From NCBI RefSeq assembly GCF_058153355.1, contig NZ_CM177019.1: a stretch of DNA of 64,000 bases; one strand, given 5' to 3'. The position numbers were made by a program. This document shows positions 58,301 through 61,300 of the stretch, piece by piece; the stretch's first letter is position 1; every line of letters begins with the position of its first letter.

Positions 58301-61300
58301 CGCCTGCTGTTGCGGATCATAAACTGAAGGCGTAGCGGACTGCGGCGGAGAAATAAATGTCGAAAATGGCACATTCAACCCGGTGGCAATTTTCCATAAT
58401 GTCGCGACCGTCGGGCTGGATTCATTACGTTCAATCTGCCCTAACATCGCTTTAGAAACACCCGTCGCTTCTGCCAGTCGCGAAAGACTCCAACCGCGCT
58501 GCTGACGTAGTTGTTTAAGTGTGGTGGATAAAAAGCGAGTGAGATTTTCCATGTGACTCCTCCGGCAAAGCGGAAGTTTATCACTTGTGCGTTATAACGG
58601 ACAAATGCTACGGTACCTGTACGCTATAACGCACGAGGTGACCATGCGTCTGTTTTCTATTCCTCCACCCACGCTACTGGCGGGGTTTCTGGCGGTATTA
58701 ATTAGCTACGCCAGTTCAGCGGCAATAATCTGGCAAGCAGCGATGGTCGCCGGAGCCACCACTGCACAAATCTCTGGCTGGATGACGGCGCTGGGATTGG
58801 CAATGGGCGTCAGTACGCTGGCTCTGACATTGTGGTACCGTGTGCCTGTTCTCACCGCATGGTCAACGCCGGGCGCAGCTTTGCTGGTTACCGGATTGCA
58901 GGGACTGACACTTAACCAAGCCATCGGTGTTTTTATTGTCACCAACGCGTTAATAGTCCTCTGTGGTATGACGGGATTATTCGCCCGTCTGATGCGTATT
59001 ATTCCGCACTCGCTGGCAGCGGCGATGCTGGCCGGAATTTTGTTACGCTTTGGTTTACAGGCGTTTGCAAGTCTGGATGGTCAGTTTACGTTATGTGGCA
59101 GTATGTTGCTGGCGTGGCTGGCGACGAAAGCTATTGCGCCACGGTATGCGGTTATTGCGGCGATGATAGTTGGGATCGTCATCGTTATTTTACAAGGTGA
59201 CGTTGTCACAGGGGATATTGCCTTTAAACCCGTTCTCCCCGCTTATATTGCCCCTGAATTTTCGTTTGCTCACAGTCTGAGCGTTGCACTCCCCCTTTTT
59301 CTGGTGACGATGGCATCGCAAAACGCTCCAGGTATCGCAGCAATGAAAGCAGCCGGATATTCGGCTCCTGTTTCGCCGTTGATTGTATTTACTGGATTGC
59401 TGGCGCTGGTATTTTCCCCTTTCGGGGTTTATTCCGTCGGTATTGCAGCAATCACCGCAGCTATTTGTCAAAGCCCGGAAGCGCATCCGGATAAAGATCA
59501 ACGTTGGCTGGCAGCTGCCGTCGCAGGCGTTGTTTATTTGTTTGCAGGTCTGTTTGGTAGCGCCATAACTGGAATGATGGCCGCGCTGCCCGTGAGTTGG
59601 ATCCAGATGCTGGCAGGTCTGGCGCTGTTGAGTACCATTGGCGGCAGTTTGTATCAGGCGCTGCATAATGAGCGTGAGCGCGACGCGGCGGTGGTCGCAT
59701 TTCTGGTAACGGCAAGTGGACTAACGCTTGTCGGGATTGGTTCTGCGTTTTGGGGATTAATTGCCGGTGGCGTTTGTTACATGGTGTTAAATTTAATCGC
59801 TGACAGAAACCGATAATAAAAAGCGCCATCTTACGATGGCGCGACTGGAATTACTTTTTGTTAACGTCAAACATGGTGGCATCGGTCGCCATGTCATCAA
59901 TAACTTGCTTAATATTCTCGAAAGCCATTGGCGTACTTTCATTATTCAGGTCTTTACCTTCGCCCTGACGAACGACTTTGATAACCGGTTTATTAGTAGC
60001 TGCATCAATCAGCTCACCTTCAAAATACAGGCGAGTATCCATGGTACGGTGGCCCGTCGCCATTTGCGTCCCCGCGACCACTAATGCGACAGGAACCACT
60101 TCATAGAATTGCAGCCCTTCTTTGCTGGTATCTACACCGGTAATGGCCCCACGGAAAATCAGACTACGCGGCCCAGCGGTGGTAACCAGTGGTTTACGCT
60201 GCGCAATCGCTTCTTTCATTTCAGTGTTGGTATAGCTCAAAATTTTATCCAGAACTTTCTGCCCTACCTGAGTAGAAGGTTTCGGCACCGGATAATAAGT
60301 GATTGGGTTCCAGACGATGCTGTCATATTTACTTTGATCAAAACTTGGGTCTACCCAACGTAAAACAGGCTTACCCGTTGCAGAATTTGTTTCTTTTAAA
60401 TCAGAGTAATTGTTTAAAAAGCCAGAATATTTATCTGGCTGGGTGATTTTAGAGGCACAACCAGACAGAGCCAACAAGCCGCATAAAGCTGCAACTTTCG
60501 CAAATGATGTGGTACGCATGAATAGTTTCCTGAGATGATTATATTACTTTTTAAGTTATAGCAAAAAGCACCGCTTCGTGTTGTGGCAAAAAAAGTGTTG
60601 GTGAAAATAAATTTTTCAGCCCCTTTTCAGACGACATAGTCAATGCCGAAAAAGGGGCTAAGTCAATCATCAGTAGTTAAATTTCAGTAAGTTAAGCTGC
60701 TAAAAAACTTCGACTACTGTGATTAATTTCACATCCATTCGATAAAAAATATGCTTACCGAAAAGAAGAACAGTAGACCATCTCAGCGTGGGGAATTTTC
60801 ACGCGCCTTGTTCTTACCAGGTTATTTTTTACGTGCCAGCATCGTGGCGAAACGCAGTTTAATACGATTACCGTTGGCGTCGGTGCGGTGCAGCTCGCCG
60901 ACGTCTTCATTGTATTTCACCATCTCCCAGCCTTCGTAATATCGACGTAATTCTCCCTCTTTGAAGGCAAACGGGAAGCCGACGGTACATGGATAATCAG
61001 CGGTATCCATCGCCGCCACAATCAGGTTGTAACCGCCAGGTTTAGTGCAACGTTGCATATTGGCAATCAGCCCAGGGATGGTTTTAGCCTCAAGGAACAT
61101 CAGCACCACAGTCGAAAGAATAAAATCGTATTGCCCATCAAACGTGAGGTTATTCAGATCAACGACCCGGGTATGTAAATTATCCAGATTTTCAATGGAT
61201 TTAATGCGCTCGACGTTGGCGATACTCATGGCATTTTTATCCCATGCGTCAACTTCATAACCATTGGCTGCCAGGTAAAGACTGTTACGACCATTGCCAC

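What the first reader, a model, noticed from the sequence alone, without database searches (positions are those of the whole stretch)
59817..59850. No insertion sequence between ydcO and ydcL, and none anywhere in the window
ydcO and ydcL are separated by only a 34-bp bidirectional terminator here, whereas I recall K-12 carrying an IS-derived transposase gene at this junction. Together with the absence of RhsE and H-repeat sequences this places the window in a non-K-12 lineage and means the disrupted genes are not IS-mediated.
Basis: partly seen in the sequence, partly recalled or inferred. Interest (0 to 1): 0.25.

Follow-up and report, generated by a model that had tools for sequence, protein, structure and literature searches.

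The report
Empty IS609 site between ydcO and ydcL

Summary
ydcO ends at 59816, ydcL (minus strand) ends at 59851, and 34 bp lie between them. That spacer holds an 8-bp GC-rich hairpin (59823-59842).

K-12 MG1655 carries a 1,748-bp IS609 exactly here (tnpB gene insQ plus tnpA pseudogene yncK). Deleting the annotated element from K-12 reproduces the window's junction base for base, with the insertion point between 59815 and 59816.

IS609 sits 3' of the pentamer TTTAT at four of four independent sites. Here that pentamer is the tail of the ydcL terminator and overlaps the ydcO stop codon.

Among 5,426 complete E. coli genomes, 2,135 have the uninterrupted junction and 3,255 have the ydcL-IS609 junction.

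The window contains no IS609, RhsE, H-repeat or IS4 sequence and no multicopy DNA. It is collinear with IS-free annotated stretches of three genomes.

It is 93-98% identical to K-12. Two of its closest genomes are documented Escherichia cryptic clade I strains.

Its disrupted genes carry two amber mutations, two 1-bp frameshifts and one 444-bp deletion, with no IS at any of them.

Two caveats apply. The hairpin is a canonical terminator only for ydcL, and an empty site cannot be told apart from a scarless excision.

This is a known presence/absence polymorphism of low interest.

The parts
58587..59816 (+). ydcO, a BenE-family transporter gene. This is the longest ORF; the K-12-equivalent start is 58644. 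The stop codon TAA lies at 59814-59816.
   Evidence: ORF list. Pfam BenE E = 3.8e-158. tblastn with K-12 YdcO covers residues 1-390 of 391 at 95% identity. K-12 YdcO is one Tyr longer because IS609 splits the stop codon.
59817..59850 (.). The 34-bp ydcO-ydcL spacer, which is the finding itself.
   Evidence: The spacer has the same length in MFDS1022581 (identical sequence), 2013C-4282 (1 difference) and SMS-3-5 (2 differences).
59823..59842 (-). Intrinsic terminator hairpin of ydcL: GCGCCATC-GTAA-GATGGCGC followed by TTTTTATTAT.
   Evidence: Terminator scan, - strand only. Folds. Yokenella regensburgei has the same stem with a different loop after its ydcL homologue, and a different upstream ORF.
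59816..59820 (-). TTTAT, the IS609 target pentamer. The K-12 insertion point is immediately 3' of it, between 59816 and 59815.
   Evidence: K-12 flanks. The same ATAAA (+ strand) abuts the left end of IS609 at three other insertion sites. The pentamer plus 20 nt of the K-12 right-end flank is present once with 0 mismatches at 59796-59820.
59851..60519 (-). ydcL, a DUF3313 lipoprotein gene.
   Evidence: ORF list. Pfam DUF3313 E = 3.2e-62. 99% identical to K-12 YdcL.
34963..38300 (+). Segment that replaces K-12 yncH-rhsE-ydcD-yncO-yncI-ydcC. It holds an alkyl/aryl sulfatase gene (35178-37151) and a MASE5-GGDEF gene (37249-38295).
   Evidence: blastn against K-12 shows a gap here. SMS-3-5 annotation. 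tblastn. Pfam.

Best explanation
The 34-bp spacer is the unoccupied allele of a convergent gene junction. Its only functional element is the ydcL intrinsic terminator: a hairpin at 59823-59842 followed on the minus strand by TTTTTAT.

In the K-12 lineage and about 60% of complete E. coli genomes, a 1,748-bp IS609 lies exactly between window positions 59815 and 59816. IS609 belongs to the IS200/IS605 family and carries a Y1 transposase gene (tnpA) and a tnpB gene (insQ).

The element sits 3' of TTTAT, which is the terminator tail. It makes no target duplication and splits the ydcO stop codon as TA|A, so K-12 YdcO gains one Tyr.

The window carries the element-free form, as do two documented cryptic clade I relatives. 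The most parsimonious reading is that it was never invaded.

Shown here: the exact junction, the target pentamer, the population frequencies, and the lack of any IS in the window. Inferred: that the empty state is ancestral, and that the hairpin terminates ydcL transcription.
For: - Removing the annotated IS609 (NC_000913.3 1503161-1504908) from K-12 gives CCGATA|ATAAAAAGCGCC, identical to window 59810-59827.
- blastn of the window against K-12 breaks at 59815/59816, and the two flanks lie 1,748 bp apart in K-12.
- The left end of IS609 abuts TTTAT at four of four independent sites: ydcL, yfaY, yajI and a TetR-family gene. The right-end flanks differ at each site, so there is no target duplication.
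- The K-12 element has the family's parts: Y1_Tnp (E = 1.3e-40, one internal stop), OrfB_IS605 with Cas12f1-like_TNB and HTH_OrfB_IS605 domains, and subterminal hairpins.
- 2,135 of 5,426 genomes have the uninterrupted junction, and 3,255 have the ydcL-IS609 junction.
- Two documented cryptic clade I strains have the same 34-bp spacer or rank among the closest genomes: 2013C-4282 and EC42405. So does MFDS1022581, whose clade was not checked.
- No IS609 DNA is present in the window; the best blastn E-value is 0.02-0.09 for 16-21 nt.
- InsQ, YdcC, YncI, RhsE and the IS4 transposase give no tblastn hit.
- Each of the three window chunks has at most 2-4 places per genome and only 5-42 plasmid places in 20,395 records, so nothing in the window is multicopy.
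- The window is collinear with annotated stretches of N96, SMS-3-5 and 2013C-4282 that carry no transposase in the aligned parts.
Against: - IS200/IS605 elements excise scarlessly and regenerate exactly this sequence (Meers et al., bioRxiv 10.1101/2023.03.14.532601). The sequence therefore cannot prove that the site was never occupied.
- Escherichia sp. MOD1-EC7003 has a ~43-nt IS609 end-to-end scar at the same TTTAT. Occupation of this site may be old or recurrent.
- The IS screen relies on similarity, copy number and collinearity. A single-copy, entirely novel element hidden inside a conserved collinear gene map is very unlikely but was not excluded by a complete domain scan of every ORF.
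- Terminator function is predicted, not measured.
Confidence: 0.9

Rival explanations
1. The site once held IS609 and lost it by TnpA-catalysed scarless excision. On this reading the 34-bp spacer is a 'donor joint' rather than a virgin site.
For: - The precise excision chemistry of the family regenerates the target pentamer abutting the right-end flank.
- The window carries exactly that pentamer plus a 20-nt flank with 0 mismatches.
- A different Escherichia species (L033) has an IS609 scar at the same site, so the insertion could predate the lineage splits.
Against: - 2013C-4282 and MFDS1022581, both among the closest genomes, are also empty at this site.
- tnpA is a pseudogene in all four IS609 copies inspected, so excision is probably rare now.
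- There is no IS609 anywhere in the window.
- A single insertion inherited by the 60% of genomes that carry it is more parsimonious.
Confidence: 0.08
2. The missing IS is an assembly artefact: a repeat was collapsed or skipped in the source assembly.
For: Two of the window's private lesions are 1-bp changes, one in an A7 run and one turning a single G into GG. These could be sequencing errors and hint at imperfect consensus quality.
Against: - The junction is base-perfect and matches 2,135 independent complete genomes.
- A collapse would not recreate the exact TA|A stop codon and the target pentamer.
- The nearest relatives share the 34-bp spacer.
Confidence: 0.01
3. An unrecognised mobile element is present elsewhere in the window, so 'none anywhere' is wrong.
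For: Not every ORF was scanned against profile libraries. Three segments differ from K-12: 12927-13347, 19935-22467 and 34963-38300.
Against: - Those segments encode a HigB-like toxin, an OmpC-like porin with LRR proteins, and a sulfatase with a GGDEF protein. None is a transposase.
- They are shared, collinear and annotated without transposases in N96 and SMS-3-5.
- No multicopy DNA is present.
- Rfam finds no group II intron, and there are no tRNA genes.
Confidence: 0.02

Closest known systems
IS609 insertion at ydcL/ydcO in E. coli K-12 MG1655 (NC_000913.3 1503161-1504908; insQ b1432, yncK b4578)
   Same: It is the same chromosomal junction. The flanking sequence is identical at the insertion point, including the TTTAT target and the ydcL terminator hairpin.
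   Different: The window lacks all 1,748 bp. Its ydcO ends with its own TAA instead of TAT-TGA, where the TGA lies wholly within the right end of the IS. Its hairpin loop is TTAC where K-12 has TAAC.
Uninterrupted ydcO-ydcL junction of other E. coli (e.g. MFDS1022581, 2013C-4282, SMS-3-5, and O157:H7 and ST131 strains)
   Same: The spacer is 34 bp with the same hairpin. It is identical in MFDS1022581 and differs by 1-2 bases in the other two.
   Different: Nothing of substance differs at the junction. SMS-3-5 additionally has an IS4 inside ydcO, and 2013C-4282 keeps an Rhs/VgrG/ISAs1 island that the window lacks.
IS200/IS605 'donor joint', the target of TnpB/omega-RNA (Meers et al. 2023, bioRxiv 10.1101/2023.03.14.532601)
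   Same: The architecture is the same: the target pentamer (TTTAT, also the wild-type motif of G. stearothermophilus TnpB2) directly abuts the sequence that flanks the right end of the occupied allele.
   Different: There is no evidence that this allele arose by excision. Nor is there evidence that K-12 InsQ is an active nuclease or uses this flank as its guide. Only a sub-threshold Rfam HgcC hit was found at the K-12 right end.

Membership tests
IS200/IS605-family insertion sequence (IS609) present at this junction | Y1 HUH transposase gene (tnpA, Pfam Y1_Tnp) | tested here: not met
   Only ydcO and ydcL flank the 34-bp spacer. The K-12 comparator has a Y1_Tnp pseudogene, E = 1.3e-40.
IS200/IS605-family insertion sequence (IS609) present at this junction | tnpB gene (OrfB_IS605 with a zinc-ribbon/TNB domain) | tested here: not met
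   tblastn of K-12 InsQ against the whole window gives no hit at E <= 1e-5. InsQ itself has the OrfB_IS605, Cas12f1-like_TNB and HTH domains.
IS200/IS605-family insertion sequence (IS609) present at this junction | Subterminal left-end and right-end hairpins of the element | tested here: not met
   blastn and blastn-short of the full IS609 against the window give only 11-21-nt chance matches. The K-12 ends fold as imperfect hairpins.
Unoccupied IS609 target site | The target pentamer that abuts the left end at occupied sites, present and uninterrupted | tested here: met
   TTTAT lies at 59816-59820 on the minus strand. The same pentamer abuts the left end at four of four independent IS609 sites. 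TTTAT itself is common, with 245 copies in the window.
Unoccupied IS609 target site | The sequence equals the occupied allele minus the element, with no duplication or scar | tested here: met
   K-12 flanks joined across the annotated IS boundaries reproduce the window junction exactly.
Rho-independent (intrinsic) terminator | GC-rich stem-loop directly followed by a U tract, downstream of a stop codon (ydcL direction) | tested here: met
   The stem has 8 bp (6 G-C), the loop has 4 nt, and the tail is TTTTTATTAT. It starts 9 nt after the ydcL stop. Fold z = -3.5 as RNA and -4.6 as DNA. The stem is conserved in Yokenella with a different loop.
Rho-independent (intrinsic) terminator | The same criteria in the ydcO direction, as the claim 'bidirectional' requires | tested here: not met
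   The + strand stem is followed by GACTGGAATTAC before TTTTT, and the scan does not call it.
Rho-independent (intrinsic) terminator | Transcripts actually end there | not testable with these tools
   This needs 3'-end mapping (Term-seq or 3' RACE).
Rhs element / H-repeat (ISAs1-family) sequences in the window | Rhs core or tip ORF, or the ISAs1 transposase YdcC/YncI | tested here: not met
   tblastn with K-12 RhsE, YdcD, YncI and YdcC gives no hits. K-12 1526863-1532962 is replaced by window 34963-38300.

The most novel reading that the evidence does not exclude
The tail of the ydcL terminator may be a recurrent, guide-directed landing site for IS609. A full element sits there in about 60% of E. 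coli. A collapsed end-to-end scar sits at the same TTTAT in another Escherichia species. The window's allele is a perfect match to TTTAT plus at least 20 nt of the K-12 right-end flank. If InsQ is an active omega-RNA-guided nuclease, this empty allele would be cut and converted whenever an occupied copy entered the cell. That would explain the spread of the insertion by homing rather than by descent alone.
Probability: 0.12. Interest if true: 0.35.

Novelty: already known. Interest (0 to 1): 0.07.

Why it matters
The finding matters little in itself. IS609 at ydcL/ydcO is annotated in K-12, and its presence or absence is a common polymorphism, split 39% to 60% among complete genomes.

The check is useful as bookkeeping for the rest of the window:
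- It fixes the window as a non-K-12 Escherichia segment whose closest documented relatives are cryptic clade I strains.
- It shows the window is free of IS elements.
- It shows the window's pseudogenes arose by point mutation or small deletion, not by IS insertion.

The exact empty allele also gives a natural target-pentamer-plus-flank substrate for anyone testing whether E. coli InsQ is an active RNA-guided nuclease.

Tried and rejected
- **Outgroup scan.** I scanned genome contigs with the hairpin pattern AAAAGCGCCATCNNNNGATGGCGC to get outgroup states. Of 35 loci, only two were homologous: Escherichia sp. MOD1-EC7003 and Yokenella regensburgei. The GTDB representative of E. coli did not match, so no clean outgroup series was obtained and ancestry stays inferred.
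- **Rfam at the window junction.** It found nothing beyond one chance hit, E = 0.41.
- **Rfam at the K-12 IS609 right end.** It gave only sub-threshold hits: HgcC at 22 bits against a gathering score of 50, and RAGATH-18 at 25 against 45. No omega-RNA is claimed.
- **Literature.** Searches for IS609 and insQ returned surveys that merely list the element and no study of this junction.
- **In-frame TGA of fdnG.** I considered it as a disruption and rejected that, because SECIS_3 at 17638-17696 marks it as selenocysteine.
- **Shigella origin.** I considered this because of the pseudogenes and rejected it. There is no IS in the window, identity to K-12 is only 93-98%, and two of the best matches are documented cryptic clade I strains.
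- **First Pfam call.** It failed because yncK has an internal stop, and I repeated it with X in place of the stop.

Full report
**1. The observation**

The + strand ORF ending with TAA at 59814-59816 is ydcO. Its Pfam BenE match has E = 3.8e-158, and it is 95% identical to K-12 YdcO over residues 1-390 of 391. The - strand ORF at 59851-60519 is ydcL, with Pfam DUF3313 E = 3.2e-62 and 99% identity to K-12 YdcL.

The spacer 59817-59850 is 34 bp: TAAAAAGCGCCATCTTACGATGGCGCGACTGGAA. It holds a hairpin, GCGCCATC/TTAC/GATGGCGC, at 59823-59842. The hairpin folds clearly better than dinucleotide shuffles: RNA z = -3.7 on the + strand and -3.5 on the - strand, and DNA z = -4.6 on the - strand.

The consensus terminator scan reports it only on the - strand, where the stem is followed at once by TTTTTATTAT. 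On the + strand the stem is followed by GACTGGAATTAC before a T run. It is therefore a canonical intrinsic terminator for ydcL and not demonstrably one for ydcO. 'Bidirectional' is half right.

Yokenella regensburgei has the same 8-bp stem with a different loop (GGAA) immediately after its ydcL homologue. Its upstream ORF has a different length and gave no blastn match to ydcO; I did not identify it. This fits the hairpin belonging to ydcL.

**2.

RefSeq NC_000913.3 annotates a mobile element 'insertion sequence:IS609' at 1503161-1504908, 1,748 bp long. It lies between ydcL (ending at 1503125) and ydcO (stop codon at 1504905-1504907). It contains insQ (b1432, 'putative RNA-guided DNA endonuclease') and the pseudogene yncK (b4578).

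Read in the window's orientation, K-12 is ...AGAAACCGATA [TTGACATCC...GCGCACCGG] ATAAAAAGCGCCATC.... The window is ...AGAAACCGATA ATAAAAAGCGCCATC.... Removing the annotated element therefore regenerates the window sequence exactly, with no duplication and no scar.

A whole-window blastn against K-12 breaks at 59815/59816, with the two flanks 1,748 bp apart in K-12. The insertion splits the ydcO stop codon as TA|A. As a result K-12 ydcO reads TAT TGA and gains one Tyr, which explains the 390 of 391 aligned residues. The stated refuter, K-12 showing the same 34-bp junction, is not met.

**3. What the K-12 element is and how it chose this spot**

- InsQ has OrfB_IS605, Cas12f1-like TNB and HTH_OrfB_IS605 domains.
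- yncK translates to a Y1_Tnp protein (E = 1.3e-40) with one internal stop.
- Both ends carry subterminal imperfect hairpins.

I pulled three further IS609 copies at unrelated sites: next to yfaY in strain 042, inside a yajI-family gene in CFSAN061768, and inside a TetR-family gene in S1-JOR-02-A. In all of them the left end abuts the same pentamer, which is ATAAA in window orientation and 5'-TTTAT-3' on the element's top strand. The right-end flanks all differ.

So IS609 inserts 3' of TTTAT without target duplication, as expected for the IS200/IS605 family. In the window that pentamer is the minus strand of 59816-59820. It is the tail of the ydcL terminator U tract, and it overlaps the ydcO stop codon. 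TTTAT alone is common, with 245 copies in the window, so the target itself is unremarkable.

**4. Population frequency**

- A 1,101-bp query centred on the junction is covered contiguously in 2,135 of 5,426 complete E. coli genomes. In most of the rest it splits at query position 516/517, which is window 59815/59816.
- A 500-bp K-12 query centred on the ydcL/IS609 left-end junction is covered contiguously in 3,255 genomes.
- The two states together account for 5,390 of 5,426 genomes.
- Empty-site genomes include O157:H7 and ST131 strains, SMS-3-5, and the genomes closest to the window. Occupied genomes include K-12, MC4100 and NEBExpress.

The empty allele is thus a common, ordinary state.

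**5. 'None anywhere in the window'**

- *No similarity to known elements.* tblastn with K-12 InsQ, YdcC (H-repeat/ISAs1 transposase), YncI, RhsE and YdcD, and with the SMS-3-5 IS4 transposase, gives no hit. blastn and blastn-short with the whole IS609 give only chance matches of 11-21 nt.
- *No multicopy DNA.* The three chunks 1-25000, 25001-50000 and 50001-64000 were each searched against 20,395 records. They have at most 3, 4 and 2 places per genome, and only 29, 42 and 5 places on plasmids. Any IS common in E. coli would give many more.
- *Collinearity.* The window is collinear with K-12 except for three segments, and with SMS-3-5 from 13348 to 59526. The corresponding annotated stretches of N96, SMS-3-5 and 2013C-4282 contain no transposase within the aligned parts.
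- *The non-K-12 segments.* They encode a HigB-like toxin (13075-13353), an OmpC-like porin and LRR proteins (19651-23523), and an alkyl sulfatase plus a MASE5-GGDEF protein (35178-38295).
- *RNA features.* Rfam at gathering thresholds finds only the fdnG SECIS, and there are no tRNA genes.

I did not run a profile scan of every ORF, so a residual 2% is left for an unrecognised element.

**6. RhsE and H-repeat**

K-12 1526863-1532962 (yncH, rhsE, ydcD, yncO, yncI, ydcC) has no counterpart in the window. Window 34963-38300 sits there instead. It matches the SMS-3-5 arrangement of sulfatase plus GGDEF at 97-98%. The claim is confirmed.

**7. Lineage**

Identity to K-12 runs from 92% to 98% in 2-kb bins. 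The best complete-genome matches are:
- N96, at 99.0% over 1-25000;
- 2013C-4282 and WL297, at 98.2% over 50001-64000;
- EC42405, at 98.8% and 97.7%.

2013C-4282 and EC42405 are listed among the completely sequenced Escherichia cryptic clade I strains in PMC10100065. The window is therefore a non-K-12 segment whose closest documented relatives are cryptic clade I strains. It carries a phylogroup-F-like version of the RhsE locus. The conclusion 'non-K-12' is right, but it rests on divergence. The empty IS609 site alone is shared by 39% of genomes.

**8. Disrupted genes**

Compared with K-12 and with the nearest relatives, the window has five lesions:
- an amber mutation (CAG to TAG) at maeA codon 164, 10536-10538;
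- an amber mutation (CAG to TAG) at ydcT codon 182, 51803-51805 on the - strand;
- a +1 G frameshift in ydcY, at about 47334;
- an A7-to-A6 frameshift in the second LRR gene, at about 23005;
- a 444-bp deletion that removes hicA and the 5' part of hicB, with its junction at 55479.

The hicAB deletion has the identical junction in 2013C-4282, so it is probably a lineage trait. The other four are intact in the relatives I checked and are private to the window. None has IS sequence at the lesion. The in-frame TGA of fdnG is selenocysteine. The inference 'not IS-mediated' is supported.

**9. What cannot be decided**

IS200/IS605 elements excise precisely and regenerate the pentamer abutting the right-end flank, the so-called 'donor joint' (bioRxiv 10.1101/2023.03.14.532601). 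The window's 25-mer, TTTAT plus 20 nt, matches the K-12 right-end flank with 0 mismatches. A never-occupied site and a scarless excision therefore look the same.

Two facts make 'never occupied' the favoured reading, at about 0.9 against 0.08. Relatives among the closest genomes are also empty at this site, and tnpA is a pseudogene in all four IS609 copies inspected.

Against this, Escherichia sp. MOD1-EC7003 carries a ~43-nt hybrid of the IS609 right and left ends at the very same TTTAT, next to a largely deleted ydcO. The site has therefore been occupied in more than one Escherichia lineage, or the occupation is old.

**10. Verdict**

The observation and its interpretation are correct. Two minor corrections apply: the hairpin is a terminator in one direction only, and the intact K-12 gene encodes TnpB rather than a transposase. 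The finding is a known, common presence/absence polymorphism with no new biology in the window, so interest is low. The most novel reading still open is guide-directed homing of IS609 to this terminator tail. It rests on inference only.

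Noticed in passing
window 13075-13353 (+): An intact 92-aa HigB-like toxin ORF (Pfam PF05015, E = 1.4e-17) lies directly upstream of yddM, the HigA-family antitoxin gene at 13353-13637. The ORF is absent from K-12 and SMS-3-5, where yddM is an orphan, and present in N96.
   Followed up: partly
window 10536-10538 (+): maeA carries an amber codon (CAG to TAG) at codon 164. The codon is CAG in K-12 and in the 99%-identical strain N96, so the lesion is private to the window.
   Followed up: partly
window 51803-51805 (-): ydcT, the ABC transporter ATPase gene, carries an amber codon (CAG to TAG) at codon 182. The gene is intact in K-12 and in clade I strain 2013C-4282.
   Followed up: partly
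window ~47334 (-) and ~23005 (+): There are two 1-bp frameshifts: +1 G in ydcY, and A7 to A6 in the second LRR gene (22274-23523). Both genes are intact in relatives. The changes could be real or consensus errors.
   Followed up: partly
window 55244-55528, junction at 55479: A 444-bp deletion removes hicA and the 5' part of hicB, and the hicB remnant also has a stop codon. The identical junction is present in clade I strain 2013C-4282, with 1 nt of microhomology and no IS.
   Followed up: yes
window 34963-38300: An alkyl/aryl sulfatase gene and a MASE5-GGDEF gene replace K-12 yncH-rhsE-ydcD-yncI-ydcC. This segment is 97-98% identical to SMS-3-5 (phylogroup F by recollection, not checked here). 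Clade I relative 2013C-4282 instead has VgrG, Rhs, a group II intron and ISAs1 at this locus, so the window is a mosaic here.
   Followed up: partly
window 19651-20751 (+): An intact 366-aa OmpC-like porin gene lies where K-12 keeps only the 96-aa fragment yddL. It is followed by two LRR-protein genes, the first of which has a long poly-Ser tract.
   Followed up: no
L033 (Escherichia sp. MOD1-EC7003) 241-289: A ~43-nt hybrid of the IS609 right-end and left-end hairpins sits at exactly the same TTTAT next to the ydcL terminator, and ydcO is almost entirely deleted. It is a collapsed IS609 scar in another Escherichia lineage.
   Followed up: partly
L001 5219-5650; L006, L007 and L008 1962-2387: The tnpA gene of IS609 is a pseudogene in all four copies inspected, through an internal stop and/or truncation. 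The tnpB gene insQ (1,209 nt) is annotated as intact in each.
   Followed up: partly
L005 (SMS-3-5) 46545-49193: SMS-3-5 has an IS4 inserted inside ydcO yet keeps the 34-bp IS609-free ydcO-ydcL spacer. The ydcO neighbourhood has therefore been hit by different IS elements in different lineages.
   Followed up: no
L001 6803-6919 (+): The right end of K-12 IS609 gives sub-threshold Rfam hits to HgcC (22 bits against a gathering score of 50) and RAGATH-18 (25 against 45). This is the region where a TnpB omega-RNA would be expected, but the scores are too weak to claim one.
   Followed up: no
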